DNA from: a virus
Length of the DNA: 64,000 bases
Strand: one strand, 5' to 3'
Virus genome (UHGV): UHGV-0298424
Each line of letters starts with the position of its first letter. Position 1 is the first letter of the stretch. A program made the translations under genes and the position numbers. Below are positions 48,690 through 64,000 of the stretch, one piece after another. The notes under the pieces were generated by a model. It saw nothing but the letters and a program-made list of their open reading frames with translations, was not told where the DNA came from and searched no databases.

Positions 48690-48702
48690 GGAGAATTTTT
48701 TG

Positions 48703-51700: not shown

Positions 51701-52884
51701 AGGAGTCTGGGGAAACGGCAGTGGCCGCAACGTTTAAGGATGTGTTGTTCAACGGTGAGGAAACCAACGCGGCGACGCTCGACTTGATAGGTTGGGGTGC
51801 CAGCCGAGATAAAATTTCTGCAAACCATGCACCTCGTGGCATGATTCGCTATCGTTACAACGTAAACAGTCGGGTATTACGTTTAGCACTGACGTTCTCA
51901 CAGTTCGGAACGACAACAGTTAAACATCGACAGCTGGAGATTCAATTCCCGTTCGATTTAGTGGATTATTTCACTGGCGACGGTGTGGGATTGTCGTTTA
52001 AAGAACTGTCTGCGAAATGCCGTGTAACGATTAGTCACGCGCTGATTGATCCGGCTACGAGTAACGTCGACATTGATAAGTACCATTACTTACGTTCGTT
52101 GTTCGAATCGTATCTGGATTCGTCCGTTGGGTATTTGGCTGATACCAAAGACGTTGATTTTAGTCAGACTGTGATTGACCCCGCGACTTATGAGATTAGT
52201 CAGAAATACCGCGTTACAGAAAGCATCGCGCTGCCAACCGGCCAGGGAAGTGTTGCTGTTTCACATGACGGTCAGTTGCCTGCGCAGTTCTTTGACCGTA
52301 AGCTGTCTCGTGGTGCCTTGATGGCCAAGAAAGGTGAACTCAACGCTTCCTGGAATAATGAGTGGAGCACGACTAAAGCTGCTGCGAGTCGTTATCGCCA
52401 TAAACTCATTCTACGCTTTGCACAAGGTGCTGATAAACAGCAGTATCGCGTTGCAAAAGTGGCCGGGACGGTGAAGTCTAACTGGCCGGGTAAAGTGATT
52501 ATCGGTGATGCCGGGAAGGACCCGTATGTATCGGCTATTGATAGCGTATCTTTTGCGCTTTCGACCGCCTCTGATACAGGTAAAGCGATTACTCTTACGC
52601 CAAAGGACTTACGTGTAGGTCAGGACATTTATATTGTCTTAGAACCGCCCGGCAATAATCCGGAAGGTTATGAACTTAACTTTACCTGTTCGTTAGATGT
52701 CACTGACGAGAAAGGTGTCCGTCAAGATCAACTCAATGCACAGAGTTTCGAACTCCGTAGCGGCGAAAGTCAGTTCTTAATGGAGAAACGCAACCCGTAC
52801 CATATCACGAGTAAAGCGTGGAAGTGGATTTTGGCTGTACTGAAACGTGAACTTAACGGGAAGCAGTTAGGGGATCGTACTTAG
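48703..52884 (+). CDS. tail fibre protein (about 1393 aa)
   Basis: ATG 48703 after AAGGAGA; shared N-terminal domain; KATTTEKGVVKL and TITKADLGLGQADNTADLDKPLS fibre-shaft motifs; tandem terminator hairpins after stop. Confidence 0.7.
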   Translation: MKAYPYDPRGTKTENHFLEERIIGSENNNDRVVILDHRPFFEDLVVRQPGSTTPLSRGVDYELQYQLTELDDSVAANVYCGVHLINPSIKGIVTFEGQMLGGTFYDPFVDILDELVKYLNNPVSADWLLLEGRPSLYPATPAATSWADLLNKKYLASAVHDVELKTDDANQLIKDKLAEVKALVAALGKEIETFNYPAHIAETNPHQTTSAQINAHPVNLKTPDTFMAYGLKLKALTDELKAFRLPQSVIDTYISHWISSEVRGVFNCTVSGNRAQFRSKNGESEIIFANDGFTLKSNGSVVLAVGHLEGTGAGRYINWRAGKNILRIESTGDALGMNKLTLNGNPLLTTTALMEYQQDPDAGGSGGGDPDDSKVYIEGRNGISFTGKGSRTDPIVGTIDPTKATTTEKGVVKLKTGKGTEIVGVAATPASLAPYATDLSGYVAKTTMINGKPMNDGSRTITKADLGLGQADNTADLDKPLSTKLTEAVSGLADVGHHHDWSELGIYKASQSVYGIGRYATNQNGLVENRAVVPNILKELSARLSVVAAAIANAKEGTVTDFAAVKGADWRFNSQGTAISVQDLKYFYLLDGMKGDSTVTGAIDLQTTPMFNWFSPNNQLELTWPTGKVSKGTGISWDGIVDPPTMGFQSVPVGKSATQMGVQSVVSVLAKTRVKARQKRLFVYAAGGGTITVYVNGVVGATGASPLLMNYGTSPDVENYTIAVKAECSDTAKSAAVQFEVYDGDYPVYFSGPETRVELLQEFVTTHVGIRHYLYVNMLTGSLYSRAEPVQGFEVDPERGYIGYVDIVPGQSYANKTVGFETTFDFGKSAEVSEHNSIRKAHGLNAADWSLTDNPRLPLLNRAIAEPRACIFRKPLATATGDVFHLVSRGLYTYAHNQNVKSSLQYVVIPEGATPYCWFTPFNPKENNAPTFEGSFAFDVDDVGGTQALAAAPDLVLCTSTQGSSVKRRYLRIDLTTKTCKLGIGSRSDSAVTDIPLVMEESGETAVAATFKDVLFNGEETNAATLDLIGWGASRDKISANHAPRGMIRYRYNVNSRVLRLALTFSQFGTTTVKHRQLEIQFPFDLVDYFTGDGVGLSFKELSAKCRVTISHALIDPATSNVDIDKYHYLRSLFESYLDSSVGYLADTKDVDFSQTVIDPATYEISQKYRVTESIALPTGQGSVAVSHDGQLPAQFFDRKLSRGALMAKKGELNASWNNEWSTTKAAASRYRHKLILRFAQGADKQQYRVAKVAGTVKSNWPGKVIIGDAGKDPYVSAIDSVSFALSTASDTGKAITLTPKDLRVGQDIYIVLEPPGNNPEGYELNFTCSLDVTDEKGVRQDQLNAQSFELRSGESQFLMEKRNPYHITSKAWKWILAVLKRELNGKQLGDRT

Positions 52885-52946
52885 GACAGACTGCCTGCGG
52901 GCAGTTGTCTGTCCGTAGGTAACCCCTCCCTGTAATGGGGAGGGGT
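52884..52946 (+). terminator. tandem hairpins after the 1393-aa fibre gene
   Basis: GGACAGACTGCC...GGCAGTTGTCTGTCC then ACCCCTCCC-TGTAAT-GGGGAGGGGT followed by ATTTTATTT. Confidence 0.5.
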
Positions 52947-52978
52947 ATCCATTTTATTTAAAAGTAGGAGTCTTTACG

Positions 52979-55900
52979 ATGCCGAGAGAAGACGCGGCGC
53001 AGTTTAACGGTACGCTAAGCACAGCGACGTACCCTAACCGATTTAACGTGGTCATTCCGCCTGAAGGACCTTTTTATCGTATCGGATTAAAACTCACAGT
53101 AGCCGACGATACCGCGCCTAACGGACGTCGTACTCTGATTGAGGGGTTGGACTACTATTTAGGCTATTACTTTAAAGAACTCGCAGAAGCTGAACAAGAT
53201 CAGATTTATGGCGGGTTTATGTTGCTTACTGCAACAGAAATCGAATATGAGATTTTAGGGGTAGCACGGCAGTATCGTGTACCGCAATCTGAAATCGGGA
53301 AGTTCTTAGTTCGTACTGACCTGAAAGACCCGCGTAACGTGGACTGGTCGGAGTTAATGGCGTACGCGCCGGTTATTCAACCAATCGACCCCCCTGCTAA
53401 CTTAGAAGAAGCTATTCTGAGGGACGAGGTCGTTAAAGCGTTGAACGATATCCGTAAGAAAATCGTTCAGCGTTCAACAGAGTTAGATGCGGCCTTCACC
53501 GAAGTCACTAACCTGATTTACGAGAACGGTAAAAAGATTTTCGATGAAGAACTATACCAACACCACCTTAATCCTAACGCTCACCAGTATACGACCAATG
53601 ACGTTGGGGCCCTTCCGGTTTTAGGACGTGCTGTTGACGCTACAAAAGCGTTTGGGTTGACAATTGACCAACTGGCTACGCTGATGGGTTCGGCGGGCAT
53701 TGAGCAATCAGACGTTGAACAGCTAATGGGTGAAGCCCTCGGTACCGTTTACGGTCGTTGGGGCACCACGAACGGTAACGAACTAACGTTTAAAACACCG
53801 GGTGGACACATCATCAGCATCCGTGGTGATAAGTGGTTAATTACCTCCCCGCAACCGTTAGTGATTAAAGCAGACCAAGACAACAACGAATCCGGTTTGG
53901 CGGTTGAGTTTAGTGCGGGACTGAATACGCTTTGGGTACACTCTGGGTCAGAACAGGATGTATTAGCACCGGTCTATAACTCTGTGTATCTCGTTACACC
54001 AGAAATGGTGAACATGTACCTGACGTCTGTAACGTTACTTGAAGCGAATGCCTATTTCAAACCGTCAGACACCGTAAAACCGTACGGTACAGCGAAGCAG
54101 TCTAACCCACTAACGTTGAACGCGAATATTCCCACAGCAACCGAGTCGGTTTATGGGGTGTTTTCGATTACGAATATCGCAACCTCTGTAGCGCTAGGCA
54201 CTGCTATTTCCCAAAAGGCTGTGACCGAGTTAAAAAACCGGTTGGACTTGTACGTTGACGACGACTACACGGTTAACGGTAAAGGGTTTGTTAAGACAGG
54301 CGACAACATGGTGTTAACCTTAACGAAGGCCGATTTCGGTATCGATAAGATGAATAACACCACACCCATCGCTAAACCGGTAACAAAAGCATTAGCGAAC
54401 GTGCTGAAAAATAAAAGTTTGAAGGTACACACGCACACTACCGCTGATTTGGATAATGTCCCGATTGGTAGCGCAACAGTTGACGGTATCTTACAGCTGT
54501 GGGATGCGATTGATACCACGAATGATAAAGCCGTCACATCACGCCAAGGGTGGCTGTTCGCAAAAGAGATTAAGAAGGTCTCTGATAAACTGAATACCCT
54601 CTTGCCCGCATGGACAACGGCCGGGAGCAAATATACCAACAATTCGATATTGCCGATCTTGTCGATGGGTAATTACGAAGGTTATGGTAAAAACATGGAT
54701 GCGCTCCAGATGGTTATAGGGGTACAACAAGGTAAGCTTTATGCTTTAATTAGCTCTAAATCCGCCCTTCCGGGAACTGAGGGTATTTATTACGCTGTTG
54801 CTGGGTTAAAAAACGACAAAAGTCTCGGTGAAATTTACAAAACAACTTTCCGTTATAAGCCGAAAGGGTTAGAGACGAATTATCCGGGGGTGGAACTAAA
54901 AGAAATTACCGTTACTGGTACCGAAGCATTTATAGCGAAGGGCAGCGACGATAATTATTATTTAGTTAAACTGAACGGTTCAATGGATTACACCAAACAT
55001 ACCGATGTCAGGTTGGTAACTTTCTCAGAATTTGTTTCAGAAACAACATGGGAATTTGTGCCGAATATGTTCATGGATCGTGTGGTCATAGCCGATAACG
55101 GCGTCTATGTTTTGCGTACGATGCTAATGGCCGATCTGAAAAACAATACTCTGGTGGACTACATTAAGGATACCCCACAACCCATGTTCCGTGTTGGCTT
55201 ATTGCGGCTTAATAAAACCGATCGGTTTGAACAGGTTGATTTAAGGTCTACACGAAAAATCGGTAAGTGTGCCGATTTGGTTGAACCTGGCGCGTTCGAT
55301 GTAGATAATCCGAATACGAAGCGTCTTGCCTACTTCACTGCGGAAGGCAAAGCGTTGTGGACAGTGAACTTACAATTAACTAGAGGGTCGTCAAGATGGA
55401 TAACGCCCGTTGTTAAGGACGGTCACTTGTTAACCGTCGGCGTGTCTGGTGTTTGTCTTGGTTTTTCTTCAACGAAAGGTACCACATTCGGGCCATGGAA
55501 TGGTGCTTATCGTCTTGACCTATTAACCGGGGAGGTTGGGTTAGAGACAACTAACGTCTTCCCAATCAAAATCGATACTACAGGTTGTTACTTAAAAGAC
55601 GGAACAAAAATAGAGCTGAAATGGAAATGGGCTACTCGAAGTTCTGGCTATATGGCCGACAATAGAATCTGTGTCGGTGATATGGTTTATTCTTGCTGCT
55701 GTTCGACAGAAAAACAACTCGCACCATCTCTCCATTACCAGAAACTCCCAGAAGGAGTTAGTTATCTGGACTATGTTAAGTTGAGTGTGGGGTATGAGGG
55801 GCAATCTACGTTTGAAAATCGGATAAACCCTGTGGTGGGTTCGGTGTGGAAACCGTCTATGACCTTCCCATTGTTCTTCCCAGGAACAAACAAAGTATGG

Positions 55901-58165
55901 CTTAAACATCAAAAATCGGCTTATTTCATTGAAGCCGAATATGATAAAAATACGACCTATGGTTATCCTGGATACGGTGGTTTTGGACCAACATCCCGCC
56001 GTGTTGAAAAAACAGCGAACGAATACGGCATATTGACAAATATACCGCTGGTTGTTACGCCAGAAATACCGAACGGCCTACTAGAAGGGGCTTATTTTAT
56101 CGGTGCCGAAAGTAAACCGTGTACAGTTGTTTACGGTACCACTACGGTGGGTAGTGATCGGTTGTCTATCGATGCGGCAGAATGGGCGAAGCTGACTAAT
56201 ATTGTTCAGTCCAGCCAGTTCTCCGGGGCATCTAACGGCAACGCCTATGAGCGGATTAGCGTAGCTAAGACCAAAAAGAACAACTACAGTTTGTCCTTTT
56301 GGGTGCTTGGTCAAACGATGTCTGGTGGTCCGCTTTGTATCGCGATAGTGAGTCTTATCTATAAAGACACTGACGGGGTAAATAAGTTTGCTTTTTACTT
56401 CTTTCAGGTAAAACCGACTATAACCAACGGGGTCATAAGGTTCGTTAGTTCGGAAGCGAGAATGATGACGTTCAGGGAAAAAGTGGCCAGTAACGCCATT
56501 AATCTCTCACCCACAGCTTTTAATGGTGAACTTAAACAACGCTCCGGTCAAGTTTTCCTTTATTCGCAAGACGGACAAAAGTTCAGATTCTCAATACATA
56601 ACCTGGTTGGTGGGAATCTTGTAGGATCAGAGATTTCTTTTGCTTTTGGGATAAACTTGACTAAAAAAGGCGAATGGTTTACCGGCGAAATTCATCGGGC
56701 GTGGGGCTATACGTATACGCTGAATAATACATCTGAAGTCTATATACCCGATCTCTCGGGCATCGCGCTATTGACTTGTAACTCGGAAGATTTAAACGAG
56801 TTGTATCTCGGCGGCGAACAGTATAGAATCTCTGATTTGTTTAACAAAAAATATACTGTTATCGATAAGATTATTATTGGCGGCGTACAAACACAGAGCG
56901 GTTGGAATTTCTATCTGACGGAGGAAACCGAGTTAAGTTTTGGAAATAAAAGATATACCGTTCCAAGATGGTCCGTTGATTTAAGCGATGAATTCCCGAC
57001 TAATCACGCTAACCAGACGTTCTACGTTTATGCTGAAGTGGTCGGTTCTACTGCCCAATACCGCATCGGTTTAGAGCAGTTAGCTGATACCTCGTCGAGA
57101 CTGTTTGTTGGGACAGTAACCACTGATTCGAACCGTATTACGGATATCAGTATCGATAAAGTAAAACGGTTAGGTCGTGTAAAAGAGCTGGAAAATCATG
57201 CCTCGATTGTTGATCAACACGATGTGGCGCAGGCATTCGACAGGAAAACTGGCCCACTATTAACGCTGGTTAATAAACCCGTTAAAGTCGTTACAGCATC
57301 TGCGAGCAAGGGTGCTGGGTATGTCGATGGTCAGAAATGGAATACGTTGTCCGGGATTACAACACGTTCCAGGTTGCCGGTACAGGAAACCTATTCAGGT
57401 TATAAAAGTATCAGCAGGGTGGCGTATGAGAACTGCGCTGACCAGTTCTGGCAGAAAGCGGTTGCTGCGAACGTTGCAGCGGCTACTGCTTCTGAGAACA
57501 AACAAGCAGCAACCGCGAACATGAAGTGGTTGGGCGCGTATACGAAACCGACTACTGGCGAGTATGCATATCTGGCATTGAGTCTGCGTGTTAAAGTACC
57601 TGGCGATCCTGGTACTGCTAATCGTAGACTGAAAATCAGGCTTGCGGCCCCGACAGGTATAACTCAAGTTCGTTACGGGCTAAATCAGTCTGGCGGTACG
57701 ATGACTGAACAGACAGTAACGCTAACTGCTAACAGTTACCTGGAAAAAGAACACGCGGGATTTAAGCCAGCCGCCGAAGTCCGCCTTCATGCTACGTTTG
57801 TCATTCCAAAAAATGAATACGATAGTTACCGGACCAAATTTGGTGCTGTTCAGCTGATTGACGTTGAGACGAACACTGTCATTAAACAGACAGATATCGA
57901 CACACCGTTTATCGTGTACACCGCCACAGAGCAAGCGGCACAATCTGGTTTGGTGTATAAAGCGGTTAAGAGTCAGTTTCGTCAACTCCCGGCTCAACCT
58001 GTCGTCATTGTAACTGATGGACAGACAGGGACTACACCACCGGTGAAAACCGCGTTTTCTGACGGGACATTAACGGTCTACGTGGCAACCACGTACGATG
58101 CGGTTAACCCAGCACAAACTCGCGATATCGATAAGCTCCAGTTCAATCTTATGTTTACATCTTAA
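52979..58165 (+). CDS. tail fibre protein (1728 aa)
   Basis: shared N-terminal domain (PPEGPFYRIGL...GLDYYLGYYF); LTLTKADFGIDKMNNTTPIAKPVT motif; very long ORF. Confidence 0.65.
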   Translation: MPREDAAQFNGTLSTATYPNRFNVVIPPEGPFYRIGLKLTVADDTAPNGRRTLIEGLDYYLGYYFKELAEAEQDQIYGGFMLLTATEIEYEILGVARQYRVPQSEIGKFLVRTDLKDPRNVDWSELMAYAPVIQPIDPPANLEEAILRDEVVKALNDIRKKIVQRSTELDAAFTEVTNLIYENGKKIFDEELYQHHLNPNAHQYTTNDVGALPVLGRAVDATKAFGLTIDQLATLMGSAGIEQSDVEQLMGEALGTVYGRWGTTNGNELTFKTPGGHIISIRGDKWLITSPQPLVIKADQDNNESGLAVEFSAGLNTLWVHSGSEQDVLAPVYNSVYLVTPEMVNMYLTSVTLLEANAYFKPSDTVKPYGTAKQSNPLTLNANIPTATESVYGVFSITNIATSVALGTAISQKAVTELKNRLDLYVDDDYTVNGKGFVKTGDNMVLTLTKADFGIDKMNNTTPIAKPVTKALANVLKNKSLKVHTHTTADLDNVPIGSATVDGILQLWDAIDTTNDKAVTSRQGWLFAKEIKKVSDKLNTLLPAWTTAGSKYTNNSILPILSMGNYEGYGKNMDALQMVIGVQQGKLYALISSKSALPGTEGIYYAVAGLKNDKSLGEIYKTTFRYKPKGLETNYPGVELKEITVTGTEAFIAKGSDDNYYLVKLNGSMDYTKHTDVRLVTFSEFVSETTWEFVPNMFMDRVVIADNGVYVLRTMLMADLKNNTLVDYIKDTPQPMFRVGLLRLNKTDRFEQVDLRSTRKIGKCADLVEPGAFDVDNPNTKRLAYFTAEGKALWTVNLQLTRGSSRWITPVVKDGHLLTVGVSGVCLGFSSTKGTTFGPWNGAYRLDLLTGEVGLETTNVFPIKIDTTGCYLKDGTKIELKWKWATRSSGYMADNRICVGDMVYSCCCSTEKQLAPSLHYQKLPEGVSYLDYVKLSVGYEGQSTFENRINPVVGSVWKPSMTFPLFFPGTNKVWLKHQKSAYFIEAEYDKNTTYGYPGYGGFGPTSRRVEKTANEYGILTNIPLVVTPEIPNGLLEGAYFIGAESKPCTVVYGTTTVGSDRLSIDAAEWAKLTNIVQSSQFSGASNGNAYERISVAKTKKNNYSLSFWVLGQTMSGGPLCIAIVSLIYKDTDGVNKFAFYFFQVKPTITNGVIRFVSSEARMMTFREKVASNAINLSPTAFNGELKQRSGQVFLYSQDGQKFRFSIHNLVGGNLVGSEISFAFGINLTKKGEWFTGEIHRAWGYTYTLNNTSEVYIPDLSGIALLTCNSEDLNELYLGGEQYRISDLFNKKYTVIDKIIIGGVQTQSGWNFYLTEETELSFGNKRYTVPRWSVDLSDEFPTNHANQTFYVYAEVVGSTAQYRIGLEQLADTSSRLFVGTVTTDSNRITDISIDKVKRLGRVKELENHASIVDQHDVAQAFDRKTGPLLTLVNKPVKVVTASASKGAGYVDGQKWNTLSGITTRSRLPVQETYSGYKSISRVAYENCADQFWQKAVAANVAAATASENKQAATANMKWLGAYTKPTTGEYAYLALSLRVKVPGDPGTANRRLKIRLAAPTGITQVRYGLNQSGGTMTEQTVTLTANSYLEKEHAGFKPAAEVRLHATFVIPKNEYDSYRTKFGAVQLIDVETNTVIKQTDIDTPFIVYTATEQAAQSGLVYKAVKSQFRQLPAQPVVIVTDGQTGTTPPVKTAFSDGTLTVYVATTYDAVNPAQTRDIDKLQFNLMFTS

Positions 58166-58205
58166 CGCCACGAGACAAGGACGTCTCGGATTAAGGAGAG
58201 TGGCC

Positions 58206-59405
58206 ATGGCCTCCATTGTATACCAATACCCTTTAGATTTAACGGGAACCCTAACCTCTAACGCCGTGGAGCGTCAGATTACGTTAGGTACAGGCAAAGT
58301 TAACCGTGCGTTTGCTTTCCCTGATGGTCCGTTTTATGCCGATACGTTCCGCTTGCGGGTTGCCAATCGACCTGGAGCGACATATGAGCGTGGAACGGAC
58401 TATGAACTGATTTTTGCACACCCGGCTTATGAGAAATTGACGAAGAACCGGGAAGTGGTAATGGCGGTTGTTGTAACGAACACCGCGATTCCGACCGATA
58501 TCACGGTATCGGCGCAAGTAGTTGGTGGTCCGCAGTCTGCAAATGTGACCGCGATTGAGCAAGCGATTGCCGAGTTGAAACTCGATAATCGAACTGTTGG
58601 CTTTAAAGACTTGCGAAATGTGCCGGACACGTTTCCTTCAGCACCAACGTATAAAGACGTCGGTGATATTTACGGCTTCGAATATATCATTACAGTGCTC
58701 GCTGGCATTAAAGATGCGATAACTGCGGGTGATGCTGTACAGCTTGAGAACATCAAAGCGATTCTCGAAAGCCTGAAAAACGATTTCCTGGACGCGCTGA
58801 ACGCGCACATTAACTCCACTGGTAACGTCCACCATCTGGATATTCATCAGGTTAACGGGTTAACAGAAACGGAAATCCGCGCTTTAATTCGCAGTGTTCA
58901 GACAGCCATTGATGCAACGATTGCCGATATCAATGCATTGAAGAAAGCGGACGTAGCGTTAGGAAAACGTATTGATGCCGTTGTCAAATCTCTGGAAGCG
59001 TGGAACGACCAACTTAACGTCGTTGCACAAAACTACCAGAAAATGGCACTGGCAATGGCGAACCTAAACTCGTTAGTGTTACAGTTACAGAAAAATATCA
59101 ACGATCTGAGCACCAAACTCAACCAAGCGATTCAACGTATTGCTGCGTTAGAGCAACGGGGTAATGAGACTGATCAGAAAATTGATAAACTGCAACAAAA
59201 CCTGGATGCGCTTAAACAACAGGTTGCGAATAACACGAACGCTATTAGTCAGGCGAATCAGAACCTACAAAACCACATTGCGGCGGATAATCCACACACA
59301 GGTTACCTGCACAAGAAATACGGTGGCGTGGTTCAGGCTTCAGTACACGTTAACGCTAACTTGACGTCCCGTGATGACGTTCAGGCAGAAGCAGGTACGA
59401 AATAA
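58206..59405 (+). CDS. coiled-coil fibre protein (fibritin-like)
   Basis: ATG 58206 after AAGGAGAG; N-terminal domain FPDGPFYADTFRL...GTDYELIF homologous to the three giant fibres; long heptad-repeat region. Confidence 0.6.
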   Translation: MASIVYQYPLDLTGTLTSNAVERQITLGTGKVNRAFAFPDGPFYADTFRLRVANRPGATYERGTDYELIFAHPAYEKLTKNREVVMAVVVTNTAIPTDITVSAQVVGGPQSANVTAIEQAIAELKLDNRTVGFKDLRNVPDTFPSAPTYKDVGDIYGFEYIITVLAGIKDAITAGDAVQLENIKAILESLKNDFLDALNAHINSTGNVHHLDIHQVNGLTETEIRALIRSVQTAIDATIADINALKKADVALGKRIDAVVKSLEAWNDQLNVVAQNYQKMALAMANLNSLVLQLQKNINDLSTKLNQAIQRIAALEQRGNETDQKIDKLQQNLDALKQQVANNTNAISQANQNLQNHIAADNPHTGYLHKKYGGVVQASVHVNANLTSRDDVQAEAGTK

Positions 59406-59460: not shown

Positions 59461-59472
59461 TAAGGATACGTG

Positions 59473-59865
59473 ATGGCGATCAGTGTTAAAAATGTGCGTG
59501 ACCGAATCACCAACGTAGAGAACCAAATGGCAACTGGCCCACGTGTTGATCCGCAAGTTGCGTCGAAAGCACATAACGCTGCTGATTCATTTTCAGGTTG
59601 GACACCCGGTCGATTAGATTGTGGAGGTAGCTGTAGCTGGACATGCTCAAACGGTTGTACGCATGGTTGTACGAGTTGTTCAGGTACATGTACATCGGTG
59701 TGCGTAGGAAGCTGTTCCTCTGCGTGTGGTAATCAATGCAGTGGTTGTAGCGGAACGTGTTCGGGTGGTTGTTCAGGATGTAGTGGGACTTGTAGTGGGG
59801 GATGTGCTGGACGTTGTTCCTCGGGGTGTAGCGGTTCTTGTGCAGGTGGTTGTTCTAACCCATAA
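59473..59865 (+). CDS. Cys-rich precursor-like protein A
   Basis: about 130 aa; leader-like N-terminus then DCGGSCSWTCS and about 30 Cys in C-S/T-G-x-C repeats; AAGGA SD. Confidence 0.6.
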   Translation: MAISVKNVRDRITNVENQMATGPRVDPQVASKAHNAADSFSGWTPGRLDCGGSCSWTCSNGCTHGCTSCSGTCTSVCVGSCSSACGNQCSGCSGTCSGGCSGCSGTCSGGCAGRCSSGCSGSCAGGCSNP

Positions 59866-59884
59866 AAAATAAGGATCAATTCGA

Positions 59885-60799
59885 ATGGAAGAACTTACTA
59901 GACCGACGGTATCCGATAAGCTCTACAGTAATCCGAGAACGTTAAACGTGATTACAACATCCAAATGTAATCTGGACTGTAGCTTCTGCGGCGGAGCCTA
60001 TTACATGCATAGAGAGGATACAACCGCAGAAGTACAAAAGGAAAGTATTATCGAGGCGCTGGAAAATAACCCGACTATCACAAATATCCAATGGTCAGGG
60101 GGCGAACCATTACTTGCCACGCGTAAAATTGATACCCTTATAGAAGAGATAAGGGAGAAGTATCCTCGTTGCGAACATTACCTGTATACCAACGGTTTAA
60201 AAATGCGTAAATCGCATCTACCGTTGTTAAAGGGTTTTGATAGTATCTTTTTTAGCATGGATGGATTCAAAGAATCAGAGCGTCCGTTCATGCGGATTAT
60301 CGAAGAAAAACAATACGAGGTTTTGGAGACAATTTACGAATTGAAAAATATTCGTACTTGGGCGGTTTTGACACGCGAGCGTATTGGGGATAAACGTTGG
60401 TACGAAGATATAATTGCGTTACATAACCACATTTACCATTATGGTTTTTGTGAGATGTCGCTGGTTTTGGACAAAAACATGCCAAAACCGTTATCTCCCG
60501 ATCACGTTATGAACTTTATTTACGGGTATTTTAGAATTCAGGAGAATATAGAAAGACTGAATTCGTCCAATCGAAGCGAATGTGCGTTTACGCTAAATGC
60601 GTTATTTGATGAACCCTGTAACACATGTAGTCGTTGTTTTCGCATTGAGTCTGACGGTGCCCAGAACCAAGTAAAGAACGTTGAAATCGTAACGCAACAC
60701 GGCTGTAGTGACTTGGCCAGAAAGGTTGGATTAGATGCTTACGACTATATACGTCGTGTGGTAGGGGCTAAGAATAGAGTCTCAGAAAAACTACGATAA
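59885..60799 (+). CDS. radical SAM enzyme 1 (SPASM/twitch-like)
   Basis: 304 aa; CNLDCSFC (Cx3Cx2C) at residues 28-35, SGGEPLL SAM motif, C-terminal Cys cluster EC...CNTCSRC...GC. Confidence 0.7.
   Translation: MEELTRPTVSDKLYSNPRTLNVITTSKCNLDCSFCGGAYYMHREDTTAEVQKESIIEALENNPTITNIQWSGGEPLLATRKIDTLIEEIREKYPRCEHYLYTNGLKMRKSHLPLLKGFDSIFFSMDGFKESERPFMRIIEEKQYEVLETIYELKNIRTWAVLTRERIGDKRWYEDIIALHNHIYHYGFCEMSLVLDKNMPKPLSPDHVMNFIYGYFRIQENIERLNSSNRSECAFTLNALFDEPCNTCSRCFRIESDGAQNQVKNVEIVTQHGCSDLARKVGLDAYDYIRRVVGAKNRVSEKLR
59957..60556 (+). repeat. three identical nucleotide blocks shared with radical SAM 2
   Basis: 54 nt (59957-60010 = 62919-62972), 41 nt (60191-60231 = 63153-63193) and about 84 nt (60473-60556 = 63436-63519) identical inside otherwise diverged paralogs. 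Confidence 0.6.
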
Positions 60800-60857
60800 T
60801 TTTACAGAAAGCGAATTATAATGTGTCCTAGGGGGCACTAAACCAGTAGGTATTAAA

Positions 60858-61256
60858 ATGGCGATTGGTTTATCTTCTTTAAAGGCCCGGCTAGATAACA
60901 TAGACTCTACTGCATTAAAAAATACAGGTGCGGTGCAGAACTATATTCGTGGTAAAGCCACTAATAATAGCGATCTGTTTGGAGGACAGCCGAGAAATCA
61001 CTATGACTGTGGAGGTAGCTGTAGCTGGACGTGCTCAAGTTGTTCGGGCGGCTGTACCGGCAACGCCTCCGGCGGCTGCGGTTCTTCCTGTTCAGCGAAC
61101 TGTGTTTCAGGATGTAGTACAGGTTGCACAGGTTGTAGCAGTACCTGCTCAGGAGGGTGCACAGGTAATTGCTCGGGCGGTTGTTCAAGTAGTTGCACCG
61201 GAACATGTTCAGGTTCATGTCGAGGCGGATGTCAGCAATCGTGTACTGGAAGATAA
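60858..61256 (+). CDS. Cys-rich precursor-like protein B
   Basis: 132 aa; same architecture as A with 23-nt identical stretch at the DCGGSCSWTCS codons. Confidence 0.6.
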   Translation: MAIGLSSLKARLDNIDSTALKNTGAVQNYIRGKATNNSDLFGGQPRNHYDCGGSCSWTCSSCSGGCTGNASGGCGSSCSANCVSGCSTGCTGCSSTCSGGCTGNCSGGCSSSCTGTCSGSCRGGCQQSCTGR

Positions 61257-61259
61257 GAA

Positions 61260-61463
61260 ATGATAAGTCTTAAAAACATACGCGACAGATTAGTAACGGC
61301 GGAGGGATATATCACCACCGCTAATGCAAACAACTATATTGCAAACCAAGGAACGGTTTCCTCAACCAACAATCTCGCAGGATTACCTTTAAGTCATTAT
61401 AATTGTAATGGCGGATGTAGTTGGTCGTGCAGCGGTAGCTGTAGTAAGGGGGCGGGGGGGTAA
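61260..61463 (+). CDS. Cys-rich precursor-like protein C (short core, ends in G7 run)
   Basis: 67 aa; starts 3 nt after the B stop; leader ISLKNIRDRL..., core NCNGGCSWSCSGSCSKGAGG; stop directly after the poly-G tract. Confidence 0.5.
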   Translation: MISLKNIRDRLVTAEGYITTANANNYIANQGTVSSTNNLAGLPLSHYNCNGGCSWSCSGSCSKGAGG

Positions 61464-61924
61464 GTAAGCCCTCTAGCGGTGGTTCTACGCCAACCCCTTC
61501 AAGACCAACCTACGACAACAAAGCCGTTGTTTATGTTGAGTCTAAGCTACACGCTAAAGATACTGTTCGTATCAATTTCTCTACTGGGGCTGTCTTTATT
61601 CAATGCGTAACGTTAACCGGTAGAGAGAAACCGATAAGGGTCTTTAAATCGTTACTGTCTGGAAAGTCCTACGCCTACCCTCAAGTTGCAATGGGTAATG
61701 GTATCACTGTTAATTTTACAGACGCGGCTAGTTTTAAGATAGACTCTATCGGTAATGCATCTTCTGCTTCTATCTCATTAGAAGTATTAAGTAATTCCGG
61801 CGGAAGCATGGCGATTAAGCAGCAACCGAGTAAATCAAACGGCTTTACTGCAGAATTTGAAGTTACCGGCAGGCAATGGCGTGGCGGGTTCTATACCTTG
61901 AACGTCAGATTGACCGTAAAATAA
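61448..61924 (+). CDS. possible C-terminal extension of protein C via -1 frameshift
   Basis: -1 frame open for about 158 codons from inside the G-run to 61924 with no ATG/GTG/TTG before 61691. Confidence 0.3.
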   Translation, partial: GGGGVSKPSSGGSTPTPSRPTYDNKAVVYVESKLHAKDTVRINFSTGAVFIQCVTLTGREKPIRVFKSLLSGKSYAYPQVAMGNGITVNFTDAASFKIDSIGNASSASISLEVLSNSGGSMAIKQQPSKSNGFTAEFEVTGRQWRGGFYTLNVRLTVK

Positions 61925-61936
61925 TTGGAGTAATCA

Positions 61937-62824
61937 ATGAAAAACGATTTGCATTTAGCCTATAAAACAATTTTCAACCACCCACTTCATATTTCTTCCC
62001 CCGATTCAATACGCGCTCATTTGGAAGATAAAGTTCGTTTGTTAACCCAGTTACCTGGCGAATGGCCCAAAGTGCGTGGTCGTTTTTTTACCGATCGCAA
62101 TAACTATTCAGTAGAAAACACTTTTAAAATACGCGATCTGACAGCAGAAAGCGTAGTGGTGTTTACCGGTGATTCAGATTTACGCGGTAAATTGGTTGAC
62201 GGTAAATATTTCTTTAGTGACGGTATTCTGAATAATTCTGTAGATTTGGAATTGTTCTTTACGCCATTTAAAGAGTTGAATGCGAAGCCTGTAGCACGAC
62301 GTTGGTGGTCTCCAGACTATCTTGGTTCATTCCCGTACTTTTATGCCCTGGTTCCTGTAGAAACAAAAAACTATGTTGATACTGAACCGTATATTGAAAT
62401 AGAAGGTTACGAGGAACTTGGCATCAACTGTTTAGCAGATCTGATGGCGTACAGTTACAAATTTATGTGGGATCGTGAACGTTCAGTATGGGTTGCCCTT
62501 ACAGATGAACATGAAATCACAAAACGTATTCGTAAACCATGGATGCAGCATTTAATTCAAACACGTATTGGTGAACATCCGTCATCGGAAGCAGATTTAG
62601 CGAAACTTGTTAGTTTCTTAATGACGAAAGTCACGTTAACTGATGAAGAAAAAGCGGCAGTGTCGGCGGTATTGGAACGTAACGTAACGTTAGCGGATCT
62701 AGAACGTTTAAACGTGCGTTATAAAGACCTTAATCGTATTATTGAGGCTTACAATTCACCGTTTGTATTAAAACCTGGAGTTAACGCTTACGACGATCCT
62801 TTGTTATCCATTGGCTATATTTAA
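61937..62824 (+). CDS. hypothetical protein in the radical SAM cluster
   Basis: 295-aa ORF with GGAG SD between the precursors and radical SAM 2. Confidence 0.5.
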   Translation: MKNDLHLAYKTIFNHPLHISSPDSIRAHLEDKVRLLTQLPGEWPKVRGRFFTDRNNYSVENTFKIRDLTAESVVVFTGDSDLRGKLVDGKYFFSDGILNNSVDLELFFTPFKELNAKPVARRWWSPDYLGSFPYFYALVPVETKNYVDTEPYIEIEGYEELGINCLADLMAYSYKFMWDRERSVWVALTDEHEITKRIRKPWMQHLIQTRIGEHPSSEADLAKLVSFLMTKVTLTDEEKAAVSAVLERNVTLADLERLNVRYKDLNRIIEAYNSPFVLKPGVNAYDDPLLSIGYI

Positions 62825-62831
62825 AAAATAG

Positions 62832-63770
62832 ATGGACTCACCTGCAATGACAACCTACGTAGAGCCAAGGTTATCGAATCGTTTATACAATAAACCCACC
62901 GTATTGTCCGTAGTTGCTACATCCAAATGTAATCTGGACTGTAGCTTCTGCGGCGGAGCCTATTACATGCATCGTGAAGATTCTCCGCGAGAGTTTCAAC
63001 GTGAACGAATTTTGAAAGCGTTGGCGTCTAACCCAACCATTACTGAAATTCAGTGGACTGGCGGTGAACCGCTACTGGCAACTCGAAAGATTGAGGCGTT
63101 TGTCGACGAATTAAAAACGATCCGTCCTGAACTCAAACACCAGATGTTCACGAACGGTTTAAAAATGCGTAAATCGCATCTACCGTTGTTAAAACAATTC
63201 GATGCTATATATGTTAGCATCGATGGGTTTAATCTTTCTGAACGGCCTTTTAAGCGCTTTATTGATGATAATTGTCATGAAGCGTTAGAAGTAATTTACA
63301 GCTTGAATAATGTTAACACTTGGGCTGTTGTTACGAGGGAGAATTTATCCAATAAAAGATGGCATGAAGATATCATTCAATTACATACTGCTATCTATCA
63401 TTACGGTTTTCGTTCCATGTCCTTATTACTAGATAAAAACATGCCAAAACCGTTATCTCCCGATCACGTTATGAACTTTATTTACGGGTATTTTAGAATT
63501 CAGGAGAATATAGAAAGATTAAACGTTCTAAATTCTAGAGACTGCGGTTTTATTGTAAACAGATTCTTCGATCATGCTTGTAATGTCTGTAGCGAAAGTC
63601 TCAGGATAGACGCGGACGGGGAAGAAAACCAACTTAAAAATGTACCAATAACTACAAAAGCAGGGTGTAACCAACTAGCCTCCTCAATAGGTGTAGAAGC
63701 TTACGAGTACATTCGTCGTGTAGTGATGGCAGAGCGTAATAGAGGGGCGGAAAATGAGTCAAGAAAATAG
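62832..63770 (+). CDS. radical SAM enzyme 2 (paralog of enzyme 1)
   Basis: 312 aa; CNLDCSFCGGAYYMHRED, TGGEPLL, C-terminal Cys cluster; three nucleotide blocks identical to enzyme 1. Confidence 0.7.
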   Translation: MDSPAMTTYVEPRLSNRLYNKPTVLSVVATSKCNLDCSFCGGAYYMHREDSPREFQRERILKALASNPTITEIQWTGGEPLLATRKIEAFVDELKTIRPELKHQMFTNGLKMRKSHLPLLKQFDAIYVSIDGFNLSERPFKRFIDDNCHEALEVIYSLNNVNTWAVVTRENLSNKRWHEDIIQLHTAIYHYGFRSMSLLLDKNMPKPLSPDHVMNFIYGYFRIQENIERLNVLNSRDCGFIVNRFFDHACNVCSESLRIDADGEENQLKNVPITTKAGCNQLASSIGVEAYEYIRRVVMAERNRGAENESRK

Positions 63771-64000
63771 TTATCCTAAACAACTGACTTATCAAATTGT
63801 TACAAATTTATCGTGTAACTTGGACTGTGAGTATTGTTACGAACGTAAGTATCCCCGTAATAACAAAGCGGCGGATATTGTTGATTTTCTACACGCTTGT
63901 TTTGAACGAGATAAAGATCTGACAAACATCGAGGTCGTTATCGATATCATCGGTGGTGAGCCGTTTATGCAGCCTAAACTATTAAAGGCGGCATTTGAAA
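63754..64000 (+). CDS. radical SAM enzyme 3 (partial, runs off window)
   Basis: ATG 63754 overlaps enzyme 2 stop; own translation MSQENSYPKQLTYQIVTNLSCNLDCEYCYERK...IGGEPFM. Confidence 0.6.
   Translation, partial: MSQENSYPKQLTYQIVTNLSCNLDCEYCYERKYPRNNKAADIVDFLHACFERDKDLTNIEVVIDIIGGEPFMQPKLLKAAFE

What the first reader, a model, noticed from the sequence alone, without database searches (positions are those of the whole stretch)
59470..64000. Radical SAM and Cys-rich precursor cluster directly after the tail-fibre module
Three consecutive genes (A 59473-59865, B 60858-61256, C 61260-61463) encode proteins with a related 40-60 aa leader-like N-terminus, a conserved (D/N)C(G/N)GSCSW(T/S)CS junction, and in A and B a core with about 30 cysteines spaced every 3-4 residues among Gly/Ser/Thr. 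They are interleaved with three radical SAM genes carrying CNLDC(S/E)(F/Y)C, a GGEP motif and a C-terminal Cys cluster, as in SPASM/twitch peptide maturases. This is the architecture of a RiPP locus (thioether-crosslinked sacti-/ranthipeptide-like), but it sits in a phage, co-oriented with and immediately after the fibre genes. Alternatives are radical-SAM modification of a fibre-associated structural protein or a phage-delivered modified peptide. I do not recognise this as a described phage system.
Basis: partly seen in the sequence, partly recalled or inferred. Interest (0 to 1): 0.92.

Follow-up and report, generated by a model that had tools for sequence, protein, structure and literature searches.

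The report
Radical-SAM maturation of phage fibre tips
Right after its tail-fibre genes this giant phage encodes small proteins with a cysteine every fourth residue plus three radical-SAM enzymes. In unrelated phages the same cysteine tract is fused to the end of a tail fibre, so the enzymes most likely cross-link a fibre tip rather than make a free antibiotic-like peptide, and no such virion modification turned up in the literature I could search.

Summary
Genes A, B and C encode proteins with a roughly 50-residue N-terminal part and an invariant C-x3-CSW(T/S)C junction. A and B then carry a CXXX-repeat tract with 21 and 20 cysteines, not about 30. They sit among two complete small radical SAM genes, a 295-residue protein of unknown fold, and the first 82 codons of a large SPASM-type radical SAM enzyme.

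The window is a relative of the SPN3US-like jumbo phages. The module corresponds to SPN3US gp163-gp166 and occurs in about 60 sequenced phages, where the Cys-rich genes are unannotated or called in the wrong frame.

The nearest relatives outside the jumbo phages lie in prophages and phage-like contigs, again directly after tail-fibre genes. In several of them the same junction and CXXX tract form the C-terminus of the fibre protein itself. Of 90 loci then in hand, 86 carry a co-oriented CXXX protein beside a related enzyme, and the annotated neighbours are baseplate and fibre genes.

My best reading is radical-SAM maturation of a Cys-rich fibre tip, probably by thioether cross-links (confidence 0.6). 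A classical free RiPP is less likely.

The enzymes belong to a known kind, close to the uncharacterised TIGR04114/04115 "CXXX-repeat" system and to PapB. The virion-fibre substrate appears undescribed. The chemistry and virion location are untested.

The parts
52979..58165 (+). Context: 1728-aa baseplate/fibre protein, the orthologue of SPN3US gp168 and the last of three paralogues (the others are 44367-48689 and 48700-52884)
   Evidence: It matches phrog_7449 over its full length. It is 38.5% identical to the JN03 orthologue. SPN3US gp168-170 are virion proteins, absent from a tailless mutant, and similar to phiKZ gp131 (PMC5694885 and PMC5105663).
58203..59405 (+). 400-aa coiled-coil virion protein, the orthologue of SPN3US gp167 and a candidate shaft for the Cys-rich tip proteins
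   Evidence: It is 78.5% identical to JN03 'virion structural protein 20'. It matches phrog_2163, whose N-terminal domain is shared with the three big paralogues. Pfam gives only coiled-coil-type hits. gp167 is detected in SPN3US virions. Full-length homologues occur in 65 phage records, essentially the set that has the radical SAM module.
59473..59865 (+). Cys-rich protein A: 50-aa N-terminal fibre-type segment, DCGGSCSWTCS junction, then a CXXX tract with 21 Cys
   Evidence: It matches phrog_6085 at 138 bits and TIGR04114 at 20.1 bits against a cutoff of 20. The codon-position test supports this reading frame, and 21/21 Cys are conserved against JN03.
59885..60799 (+). Small radical SAM enzyme 'a', an extra paralogue absent from SPN3US and JN03
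   Evidence: PF04055 scores 52.6 bits. It is 62.5% identical to enzyme b and 56% identical to the JN03 gp164 orthologue. It is present in L005, L176 and L177 but absent from the close relative L178.
60858..61256 (+). Cys-rich protein B: N-terminal segment ending KATNNSDLFGGQPRNHYD, then the junction and a CXXX tract with 20 Cys
   Evidence: It matches phrog_6085 at 135 bits and TIGR04114 at 22.3 bits. It is 41% identical over 121 aa to the C-terminal part of the Deferribacter prophage fibre-like protein.
61260..61463 (+). Protein C: the same N-terminal architecture and an NCNGGCSWSCS junction, but only 4 Cys
   Evidence: It matches phrog_6085 at 88 bits. At 91% identity to JN03 it is the most conserved of the three.
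61691..61924 (+). 77-aa ORF in a variable insert; whether it belongs to the module is doubtful
   Evidence: It has no family hit. The region is replaced by an unrelated 140-aa ORF in L005 and is absent from JN03.
61937..62824 (+). 295-aa accessory protein, the orthologue of SPN3US gp165, with a fold that has no known relative
62832..63770 (+). Small radical SAM enzyme 'b', the orthologue of SPN3US gp164, with a reduced auxiliary-cluster region
   Evidence: PF04055 scores 50.0 bits. It has 34 homologue clusters, essentially all from this phage group. The invariant cysteines are C33, C37 and C40 plus C250, C253 and C279. The profile alignment with the large enzyme covers the barrel and stops where SPASM begins. 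The model has pLDDT 86, and the best Foldseek PDB hits are CteB, SuiB and anSME.
63754..64000 (+). First 82 codons of the large radical SAM/SPASM maturase, the orthologue of SPN3US gp163; cut by the window end
   Evidence: The full 440-aa protein was read from L005, and the shared part is 82/82 identical. TIGR04115 scores 118.9 bits and PapB 116 bits, both aligned over nearly the full profile length. The SPASM-type cysteines are C278, C286, C296, C340, C343, C349, C352 and C377. CteB (5wgg) is the only PDB sequence hit.

Best explanation
The locus is a tail-fibre maturation module.

**Proposed parts.**
- A, B and C are small fibre-tip proteins. Each has a short N-terminal docking or fibre-type segment ending in an N-x-x-L-x-G...Y motif, then the junction C-x3-CSW(T/S)C. 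A and B continue with about 80 residues of C-(S/T)-G-x repeats.
- In prophages the same unit forms the C-terminus of the tail-fibre polypeptide. In SPN3US-like jumbo phages it has become separate polypeptides encoded just after the fibre genes (the gp168-170 paralogues and gp167).

**Proposed mechanism.**
- During assembly in the reducing cytoplasm, the large radical SAM/SPASM enzyme and the small radical SAM enzyme(s) act on the cysteine tract. The 295-aa accessory protein helps as a chaperone or substrate presenter.
- Each enzyme cleaves SAM at its [4Fe-4S] cluster, abstracts a hydrogen atom from the substrate, and joins cysteine sulfur to a carbon of a neighbouring residue (Ser, Thr, Gly or Asn).
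- The result would be many thioether bridges that turn a low-complexity tract into a rigid tip resistant to reduction and proteases.
- The enzymes and the accessory protein stay out of the virion.

**Shown here by computation:** the enzyme families, the conserved four-part module, its strict association with CXXX proteins and with fibre/baseplate genes, and the fusion to fibres in other phages.

**Inferred:** that A, B and C are in the virion, that they are the substrates, that the product is a thioether, and what the accessory protein does.
For: **Enzymes.**
- All three carry CX3CX2C and GGE motifs and pass PF04055.
- The large enzyme aligns end to end with the TIGR04115 and PapB profiles and has 8 C-terminal cysteines, 7 of them invariant across 18 homologues.
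- The small enzyme's model is closest to CteB, SuiB and anSME.

**Substrate linkage.**
- Of the 90 loci in hand at that point (80 of them IMG/VR loci picked by similarity to the large enzyme), 86 have a CXXX-tract ORF on the same strand as the enzyme, most of them within about 2 kb of it.
- In a set dominated by other radical SAM/SPASM families, only 10 of 80 loci do.
- All 16 IMG/VR loci found by searching with the junction peptide carry 1-3 radical SAM genes within about 3.5 kb downstream.

**Fibre linkage.**
- In the Campylobacter P2-like prophage, a 384-aa protein with the Pfam Phage_tail_fib domain (138.8 bits) ends in the CXXX tract. It is followed by a 250-aa protein, then a large and a small radical SAM gene, then the sheath and tube genes.
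- The Deferribacter locus (L008) and contig L171 each have a GpJ-like tail protein, followed by fibre-like proteins ending '...KATNADQLGGQAGSYYRCSDCSWTCSS...' and '...AANASKLAGQTSGYYRCSGCSWTC...'. Window B reads '...KATNNSDLFGGQPRNHYDCGGSCSWTCSS...'.
- L021 has a 568-aa fibre-like protein with the same junction, encoded after a baseplate wedge gene.
- In L172 and L173, T7-tail-fibre-like genes are immediately followed by 76-79-aa CXXX peptides.
- Among 73 ORFs just upstream of the carriers in 42 dereplicated viral loci, the recurrent annotated families are mostly tail-fibre, baseplate and tail proteins, besides the radical SAM enzyme itself.

**Accessory and small enzymes.** These are conserved across lineages.

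**Carriers do not look like RiPP precursors.** Median length is 220 aa with a median of 30 Cys. The tract is C-terminal in 40 of 52 carriers and internal in a 937-aa protein.

**SPN3US virion mass spectrometry.** It lists gp167-171 but not the annotated gp163-165 (PMC5694885).
Against: - There is no direct evidence that A, B or C is in any virion. Published SPN3US proteomics could not have seen them, because A and C are unannotated and B is called in the wrong frame.
- In the jumbo phages the Cys-rich proteins are free-standing polypeptides of about 130 aa. That is also what a long-leader RiPP precursor looks like.
- Some relatives in bacterial genome assemblies have 47-69-aa precursors typical of RiPPs.
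- No modification has been demonstrated for any CXXX-repeat system.
- Pfam's SPASM model is not reported for the large enzyme at E <= 0.01.
- The acceptor residue cannot be the Asp that PapB uses, because the A and B cores contain no Asp or Glu.
- The accessory protein has no recognisable fold.
- The evidence for tail context in the IMG/VR loci is descriptive, with no formal enrichment statistic.
Confidence: 0.6

Rival explanations
1. Classical RiPP pathway. A, B and C are precursors whose N-terminal leader guides the radical SAM enzymes. The leader is then removed, and a free thioether-bridged peptide (sacti- or ranthipeptide-like) is released at lysis as an antimicrobial, signal or superinfection-exclusion factor.
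For: A and B reach the TIGR04114 cutoff. The enzymes are nearest to RiPP maturase families, namely TIGR04115, PapB, CteB and HxsB. Some related loci in bacterial genome assemblies encode 47-69-aa CXXX precursors. A, B and C are free-standing small proteins.
Against: No leader protease, exporter, immunity gene or RRE is present in the locus or in its conserved relatives. The N-terminal part is 69-90% conserved between phages whose large fibre protein (the gp168 orthologue) is only 38% identical, and it is homologous to the pre-tract segment of fibre proteins. The tract is fused to fibres of 258-568 aa and is internal in a 937-aa protein. The neighbours in many phage lineages are fibre and baseplate genes.
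Confidence: 0.13
2. The cysteine tract is a structural or metal-binding fibre domain (metallothionein-like, or disulfide-bonded after lysis) that the radical SAM enzymes do not modify. The enzymes act on something else, such as another residue of a fibre protein, a cofactor, or a host surface or nucleotide substrate.
For: Cysteine-based covalent stabilisation of tails by plain disulfides is known in phage Pam3 (PMC9942802), and a paper on phage Milano reports it by title (PMC10811340). No chemistry has been shown for CXXX systems. The small enzymes also resemble viperin and MoaA folds.
Against: CXXX ORFs co-occur almost perfectly with this particular radical SAM clade, in both search directions (86/90 and 16/16, against 10/80 in the control set). 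The large enzyme belongs to the peptide/protein-modifying SPASM group, not to small-molecule enzymes. Fibre genes without a tract were not found next to these enzymes in the sampled group-i loci.
Confidence: 0.1
3. The substrate is the same (a fibre-tip Cys tract) but the chemistry differs. The paired enzymes might convert cysteines to formylglycine or dehydro-residues, epimerise residues, or make C-C or C-S links other than sactionine/ranthionine types. The large and small enzymes might carry out two distinct steps.
For: Two different radical SAM classes are conserved together in three lineages, as in the HxsB/HxsC pair. anSME and the epimerase EpeE are among the structural neighbours of the small enzyme. 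The PapB-type Asp acceptor is absent from the A and B cores.
Against: The nearest characterised relatives by sequence, PapB and CteB, both make Cys thioethers. A tract made of one quarter cysteine is most simply read as a sulfur donor array.
Confidence: 0.15

Closest known systems
NCBIfam/TIGRFAMs 'CXXX-repeat' radical SAM system (TIGR04114 repeat, TIGR04115 maturase, TIGR04117/04118 precursors); defined bioinformatically, and I found no paper on it
   Same: The substrate has tandem Cys-x-x-x repeats rich in Gly, Ser and Thr, next to a radical SAM/SPASM maturase that lacks an N-terminal RRE. A and B reach the TIGR04114 cutoff. TIGR04115 is the best-scoring family for the large enzyme, aligned over almost its whole length.
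   Different: The large enzyme scores 119-126 bits against a cutoff of 350. The window family adds a second, small radical SAM enzyme and a 295-aa protein. The substrate carries the CSW(T/S)C junction and a fibre-type N-terminal part. The context is a phage fibre module. A sister group of viral loci scores much closer to TIGR04115 (290 bits) and also sits among baseplate and fibre genes.
PapB/freyrasin and CteB/thermocellin (SCIFF): ranthipeptide thioether maturases
   Same: These are radical SAM/SPASM enzymes that link Cys sulfur to side-chain carbons in repeated motifs. PapB's profile is the second-best hit (116 bits). CteB is the only PDB sequence hit for the large enzyme and the best structural match for the small one.
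   Different: Both fall below the family cutoffs. PapB uses Cys-x3-Asp, and no Asp or Glu exists in the A and B cores. CteB has an N-terminal RRE, which is absent here. Their products are small released peptides (from my own knowledge of these systems).
QhpD (cross-links the QhpC subunit of quinohemoprotein amine dehydrogenase) and anSME (matures sulfatases)
   Same: These are SPASM enzymes that modify cysteines in proteins that remain functional structural or enzymatic subunits, rather than released peptides. They are the best precedent for modification of a fibre protein. Both families appear among the profile or structural hits.
   Different: They are only distant relatives (55-90 bits). 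Their substrates are enzymes, not virion proteins, and only a few residues are modified rather than 20 or more.
His-Xaa-Ser system HxsABCD (Haft and Basu; uncharacterised)
   Same: A low-complexity repeat substrate is paired with two radical SAM enzymes, one large SPASM type (HxsB) and one small (HxsC), plus an accessory protein. Both profiles give weak hits to the corresponding phage enzymes.
   Different: Scores are far below the cutoffs (about 78 against 370, and about 42 against 268). The repeat chemistry differs (His/Ser, not Cys), and there is no phage context.
Low-complexity fibre-tip adhesins (T-even/S16 gp38, Pam3 gp24 glycine-rich domains) and disulfide-stabilised tails (Pam3, Milano)
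   Same: In phage S16 a small separate adhesin (gp38) carries a glycine-rich domain that was compared with the tip domain of the Pam3 fibre. Covalent cysteine chemistry stabilises tail parts (PMC9942802; PMC10811340, title only).
   Different: There is no sequence relationship. Those domains rely on hydrogen-bonded polyglycine lattices or spontaneous disulfides, not on dedicated enzymes.

Membership tests
Radical SAM superfamily (PF04055) | CX3CX2C motif for the SAM-binding [4Fe-4S] cluster and a score above the Pfam gathering threshold | tested here: met
   Enzymes a and b carry CNLDCSFC and score 52.6 and 50.0 bits. The large enzyme carries CNLDCEYC, and its full-length L005 copy scores 56.7 bits. 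The cutoff is 29.5.
Radical SAM superfamily | GGE-type SAM-binding motif | tested here: met
   The small enzymes have TGGEPLL and the large enzyme has IGGEPFM. G and E are invariant in both alignments.
SPASM subfamily (large enzyme) | C-terminal 7-8-cysteine motif able to bind two auxiliary [4Fe-4S] clusters | tested here: met
   The cysteines are C278, C286, C296, C340-x2-C343-x5-C349-x2-C352 and C377. Seven are invariant in 18 homologues. The protein aligns to the end of the PapB and TIGR04115 profiles. Caveat: Pfam's SPASM model is not reported at E <= 0.01.
SPASM subfamily (small enzymes a, b) | Seven-cysteine SPASM motif | tested here: not met
   Only three C-terminal cysteines are invariant (C250, C253, C279), and a fourth is common but not invariant. 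The profile alignment with the large enzyme ends where SPASM starts.
Twitch-domain radical SAM (small enzymes) | A shortened auxiliary domain binding one extra cluster | tested here: inconclusive
   The three to four conserved cysteines and the beta-hairpin region at 239-267 in the model are compatible with this. The best structural hits are CteB, SuiB and anSME at TM 0.5-0.6. The NCBIfam twitch model scores only 37-39 bits against a cutoff of 170.
TIGR04115 radical SAM maturase, CXXX-repeat target family | Score at or above the curated cutoff of 350 bits | tested here: not met
   The full-length L005 copy scores 118.9 bits and the JN03 orthologue 125.6 bits. It is the best-scoring family but well below the cutoff.
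TIGR04114 Cys-rich (CXXX) repeat | Score at or above the curated cutoff of 20 bits | tested here: met
   A scores 20.1 and B scores 22.3 bits. C has no hit.
PapB-family ranthipeptide maturase (NF047865) | Score at or above 340 bits, and a Cys-x3-Asp substrate | tested here: not met
   The score is 116 bits. There is no Asp or Glu in the A and B cores.
RiPP biosynthetic locus | A recognition element for the leader (an RRE/PqqD-like domain) in a maturase or partner protein | tested here: not met
RiPP biosynthetic locus | Leader removal and export functions (protease, transporter) | tested here: not met
   No such domain appears in any ORF of the locus or in the conserved downstream genes of relatives.
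Sactipeptide / ranthipeptide | A thioether bond from Cys sulfur to the alpha carbon (sacti) or a side-chain carbon (ranthi) of another residue | not testable with these tools
   This needs mass spectrometry or NMR of the modified protein.
Phage tail-fibre protein (for A, B, C) | Homology to a fibre polypeptide | tested here: met
   Window B residues 19-131 are 41% identical to residues 169-284 of the Deferribacter prophage fibre-like protein (E 6e-12 in a 15-sequence database, 52 bits). The shared N-x-x-L-x-G...Y and C..CSW(T/S)C junction is seen in the fibre-like proteins of L008, L021 and L171. The Campylobacter Phage_tail_fib protein ends in a CXXX tract.
Phage tail-fibre protein (for A, B, C) | Presence in the virion | not testable with these tools
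   Published SPN3US virion proteomics used an annotation that lacks A and C and has B in the wrong frame.
His-Xaa-Ser system (HxsB/HxsC) | Scores at or above 370 bits (HxsB) and 268 bits (HxsC) | tested here: not met
   The scores are 77.7 bits for the large enzyme and 41-42 bits for the small ones.

The most novel reading that the evidence does not exclude
Dedicated radical SAM enzymes install many covalent cross-links in the receptor-distal tip of phage tail fibres. This would be an enzyme-made, reduction-proof staple on a virion structural protein. The same module serves myovirus-, siphovirus- and podovirus-type fibres as well as jumbo phages. Much of what databases file as a 'CXXX-repeat RiPP' family would then be a phage structural maturation system.
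Probability: 0.45. Interest if true: 0.9.

Novelty: new variant of a known kind. Interest (0 to 1): 0.8.

Why it matters
Covalent stabilisation of tails by spontaneous disulfides has been described, but I found no report of an enzyme-installed radical cross-link in a virion protein.

If it is confirmed, several things follow:
- It adds a new class of post-translational modification to phage assembly.
- It gives a function to the long-unexplained radical SAM genes of the model giant phage SPN3US (gp163/gp164) and to three unannotated genes next to them.
- It recasts an uncharacterised 'RiPP' family as largely phage-structural.
- It points to a naturally stapled, cysteine-rich scaffold that could be of use in protein engineering.
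- It bears on host range and virion robustness in phages of Salmonella, Erwinia, E. coli and Campylobacter that are under study for biocontrol.

The system can be tested directly, because SPN3US has amber-mutant genetics and published virion mass-spectrometry analyses.

Tried and rejected
- **DNA similarity.** Megablast of the locus against phages found only a 187-bp match to JN03, so relatives had to be found at protein level.
- **Genome-collection scan.** The scan with the large-enzyme alignment was swamped by other radical SAM/SPASM families. I used it only as a negative control.
- **Reciprocal search from the junction.** A four-sequence alignment worked.
- **Promoters and terminators.** The scan found nothing above the shuffled expectation and no + strand terminator.
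- **Literature.** Ten full-text searches found no description of the system. The SPN3US infection-proteomics paper (PMC6384053) is not held.
- **Considered and set aside.**
  - An artefact of low-complexity DNA read in a false frame. I rejected this on the codon-position pattern and the in-frame conserved N-termini.
  - A classical RiPP as the main reading (see rivals).
  - An A:B:C heterotrimer. This remains pure speculation, since C lacks the long tract.

Full report
**1. What is in the window**

On the + strand after 59,470 the ORF list gives ten features.
- A: 59470/59473-59865
- A small radical SAM gene: 59885-60799 (304 aa)
- B: 60858-61256
- C: 61260-61463
- A 77-aa ORF: 61691-61924
- A 295-aa ORF: 61937-62824
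- A second small radical SAM gene: 62832-63770 (312 aa)
- From 63754, overlapping the previous stop, the start of a third radical SAM gene that runs off the window

The spacing is 4 residues apart from a few gaps of 3 and one of 8. Cys, Gly, Ser and Thr make up about 85% of the cores. The estimate of about 30 cysteines was therefore too high, but the rest of the description holds.

Both complete enzymes pass Pfam Radical_SAM, with 52.6 and 50.0 bits against a cutoff of 29.5.

The Cys-rich frame is the coding frame. Against Salmonella phage JN03, the core differences fall mainly on third codon positions (20/17/51 in A, 16/16/53 in B). Cysteines are retained at 21/21 and 19/20. The non-repetitive N-termini are in frame with the tracts, and all three proteins match phrog_6085.

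**2. Whose genome it is**

The only DNA-level match is a short stretch of Salmonella phage JN03, a Seoulvirus (SPN3US-like, 241 kb). The region is syntenic with JN03 and SPN3US.
- Three very large paralogues lie upstream (window 44367-58165 = SPN3US gp170, gp169 and gp168).
- A 400-aa coiled-coil virion protein follows (58203-59405 = gp167).
- Then come A, B and C, the 295-aa protein (gp165), the small radical SAM enzyme (gp164) and the large one (gp163).

The SPN3US literature treats gp168-170 as baseplate/fibre candidates. They are related to phiKZ gp131 and are missing from a tailless mutant (PMC5105663, PMC5694885). The published virion tables list gp160 and gp167-171 but none of gp161-166.

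In SPN3US and JN03, A and C are not annotated, and 'gp166' is an ORF called in the wrong frame across B. Those proteomic searches therefore could not have detected the Cys-rich proteins. The annotated enzymes and gp165 could have been detected and were not.

The N-terminal part of A is found by tblastn in 60 phage records of 197-251 kb infecting Erwinia, Salmonella, Escherichia and Proteus. The large enzyme is found in 65 records. Full-length gp167 homologues also occur in 65 records, and other phiKZ-like phages share only its N-terminal domain.

The window phage has an extra small radical SAM paralogue between A and B. The two copies are 62.5% identical. Some close relatives have the extra copy and others lack it.

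**3. The enzymes**

The window holds only 82 codons of the large enzyme. A contig about 98% identical over the shared part (L005) supplies all 440 residues, and the overlap is 82/82 identical.
- Its best NCBIfam families are TIGR04115, 'radical SAM peptide maturase, CXXX-repeat target family' (118.9 bits, profile positions 3-345 of 359), and PapB (116 bits). Both are far below their cutoffs of 350 and 340.
- The cluster motif begins at residue 21, so there is no N-terminal RRE.
- The C-terminal half carries C278, C286, C296, C340-x2-C343-x5-C349-x2-C352 and C377. Seven of these are invariant across 18 homologues down to 30% identity. This is a SPASM-type pattern, although Pfam's SPASM model is not reported.
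- The only solved structure found by sequence is CteB.

The small enzymes form a family confined to this phage group, with 34 clusters.
- They keep three invariant C-terminal cysteines.
- They align with the large enzyme across the barrel but stop where SPASM starts.
- The confident model built for enzyme b (pLDDT 86) is closest to CteB, SuiB and anSME, followed by viperin, MoaA and EpeE.
- They are therefore peptide-maturase-like radical SAM enzymes with a reduced auxiliary domain, not SPASM proteins.

**4. The 295-aa protein**

**5. The decisive comparison**

The large enzyme has 591 homologues at E <= 1e-5. Beyond the jumbo phages, the next ones, at 35-40% identity, lie in prophages or phage contigs, and in every case examined a Cys-rich carrier is encoded just before the enzymes.

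- **Campylobacter pinnipediorum.** The order is P2-type baseplate genes, then a 384-aa protein with the Phage_tail_fib domain (138.8 bits), a 250-aa protein, the large radical SAM enzyme, the small one, DUF1353, sheath and tube. The fibre protein itself ends '...GCNGCSGSCSGSCSSGCTACSGCSGSCSGKSDGCGCRHS'.
- **Deferribacter abyssi and contig L171.** After a GpJ-like tail protein come fibre-like proteins with HxHDxRYYTE repeats. They end '...KATNADQLGGQAGSYYRCSDCSWTCSSSC...' (about 29 Cys) and '...AANASKLAGQTSGYYRCSGCSWTCTTNC...'. Window B, for comparison, reads '...KATNNSDLFGGQPRNHYDCGGSCSWTCSS...'. Window B is 41% identical over 121 aa to the Deferribacter protein.
- **A 213-kb viral contig (L021).** A 568-aa fibre-like protein follows a baseplate wedge gene and has the same junction.
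- **Two further assemblies (L172, L173).** T7-tail-fibre-like genes are immediately followed by 76-79-aa CXXX peptides.
- **Two phage-like contigs (L174, L175).** These have 110-116-aa carriers.

The protein that follows the fibre is homologous to the window's 295-aa protein: hhalign gives 97% probability for the Deferribacter one, and the Campylobacter one links through Deferribacter. The small enzymes are also homologous across lineages.

The unit is thus a conserved four-part module: a CXXX tract at a fibre C-terminus, a gp165-like protein, a small radical SAM enzyme and a large radical SAM/SPASM enzyme. It is attached to myovirus-, siphovirus- and podovirus-type fibres. In the jumbo phages the tract-bearing part is a separate small protein.

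**6. How general and how specific**

- Searching IMG/VR with the large-enzyme alignment gave 226 relatives, of which 80 loci were kept. A six-frame scan for at least six cysteines spaced 3-4 residues apart found such an ORF in 86 of the 90 loci then in hand. It was always on the enzyme's strand and in most loci within about 2 kb of the enzyme.
- The same scan on 80 bacterial-genome loci, mostly other radical SAM/SPASM families, found 10, mainly the full-length relatives.
- In the reverse direction, a search with the junction peptide [DTH]CGG[ST]CSW found 16 confirmed viral loci. All of them have 1-3 radical SAM genes within about 3.5 kb downstream.
- Most IMG/VR loci belong to a sister group. 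The enzyme is about 25% identical to the window's, and one example scores 290 bits on TIGR04115. The carrier has a conserved N-domain of about 110 aa and a different junction. These loci too sit among baseplate hub, wedge, DUF2612 and fibre-like genes.
- Among 73 ORFs immediately upstream of carriers in 42 dereplicated loci, the recurrent annotated PHROG families are mostly tail-fibre, baseplate and tail proteins, besides the enzyme itself.
- Carriers are long for RiPP precursors: median 220 aa and 30 Cys, with up to 126 Cys. The tract is C-terminal in 40 of 52, and in one 937-aa protein it lies between two other domains.

**7. How it most likely works**

I propose that A, B and C are fibre-tip proteins. 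I propose further that the radical SAM enzymes, helped by the gp165-like protein, convert the cysteine array into covalent cross-links while the fibre is assembled in the reducing cytoplasm, where disulfides cannot form.

By analogy with the nearest characterised enzymes (PapB, CteB, and the protein-modifying QhpD), the links would be thioethers from Cys sulfur to a carbon of a neighbouring Ser, Thr, Gly or Asn. They cannot be PapB's Cys-Asp links, because the A and B cores contain no acidic residues.

The enzymes and gp165 would be assembly factors, which is consistent with their absence from SPN3US virions.

The conservation of each paralogue's own N-terminus is notable. It is 69-90% between phages, but under 50% between A, B and C. 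This suggests that each docks to a different partner, perhaps gp167 or the three big paralogues, but that is inference.

Everything about chemistry, virion location and function remains untested.

**8. Rivals**

- **A classical, released RiPP.** This is possible, since small free-standing precursors exist in some bacterial relatives. It fits poorly with the fibre fusions, the internal tract, the lack of an RRE, protease or exporter, and the fibre/baseplate neighbourhood.
- **A tract that is merely metal-binding or disulfide-forming, with the enzymes acting elsewhere.** The two-way co-occurrence argues against this.
- **A different radical chemistry on the same substrate.** This remains open, and I treat it as a variant of the main reading.

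**9. Relation to what is known**

The enzymes are of a known kind, radical SAM/SPASM peptide or protein maturases. The substrate type is recognised bioinformatically as TIGR04114/04115, for which I found no publication. The window's enzymes fail the curated cutoffs of TIGR04115, PapB and Hxs, so they are relatives and not members.

What appears new is the system as a whole: a two-enzyme plus accessory module dedicated to the end of phage tail fibres. It is present in the model phage SPN3US but hidden by missing or wrong-frame annotation. No paper in ten full-text searches links radical SAM enzymes to a tail fibre.

**10. Verdict**

The enzyme assignment is supported. The 'RiPP' label is supported as a mode of chemistry, but not as a free-peptide pathway. 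I rate it as a new variant of a known kind, with interest 0.8.

Noticed in passing
L001 6543-6878 (JN03 QNI20864) and SPN3US gp166; L001 6067-6459 and 6890-7096: The annotated 'hypothetical protein' gp166 is a wrong-frame ORF lying across the true Cys-rich gene B. Genes A and C are unannotated in SPN3US, JN03 and many related records. Automatic gene calls on metagenomic contig L005 also pick wrong frames.
   Followed up: yes
window 59885-60799: The extra small radical SAM paralogue between A and B is variable. It is present in the window, L005, L176 and L177, and absent from the close relative L178 and from JN03 and SPN3US. It may be a substrate-specific duplicate.
   Followed up: partly
window 61464-61936: This is a variable insert between gene C and the 295-aa gene. 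The window has a 77-aa ORF with no family hit, the 98%-identical contig L005 has an unrelated 140-aa ORF, and JN03 has nothing.
   Followed up: partly
L041 3976-6789: This 937-aa viral protein has its CXXX tract in the middle, followed by a domain of repeats of the form 'W(K/R)NxDGTGTGTGPF'. The arrangement suggests the tract can serve as a stalk between domains.
   Followed up: no
L069 5991-7559: This 522-aa viral protein has 126 cysteines, the most extreme CXXX carrier seen.
   Followed up: no
L174 2234-4502 and L175 2269-4537: These phage-like contigs carry two S-adenosylmethionine lyase genes a few kb upstream of their radical SAM pair. That is an odd combination, since the enzymes need SAM.
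   Followed up: no
proteins P0089-P0125: Many contigs of about 240 kb carrying this module are deposited as Salmonella, E. coli or 'Curtobacterium' genome assemblies. This suggests a carrier state or phage contamination of isolates.
   Followed up: no
window 58203-59405: Full-length homologues of the gp167-like coiled-coil protein occur in 65 phage records, essentially the same set that has the radical SAM module. Other phiKZ-like phages share only its N-terminal 200 residues or so. Vibrio phage pVp-JHP1101 and Xanthomonas phage Xoo-sp14 have near-full-length homologues but no radical SAM hit.
   Followed up: partly
LR535921.1 (Salmonella phage SPFM2) 139998-141284: Automatic annotation names the large enzyme 'albA, subtilosin biosynthesis protein'. 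So a sactipeptide-maturase label already sits in a public phage record without comment.
   Followed up: no
window 1-64000: No tRNA genes were found. Genes run on the minus strand up to about 41 kb and on the plus strand from 41.6 kb, starting with a baseplate assembly protein at 41603-42568.
   Followed up: no
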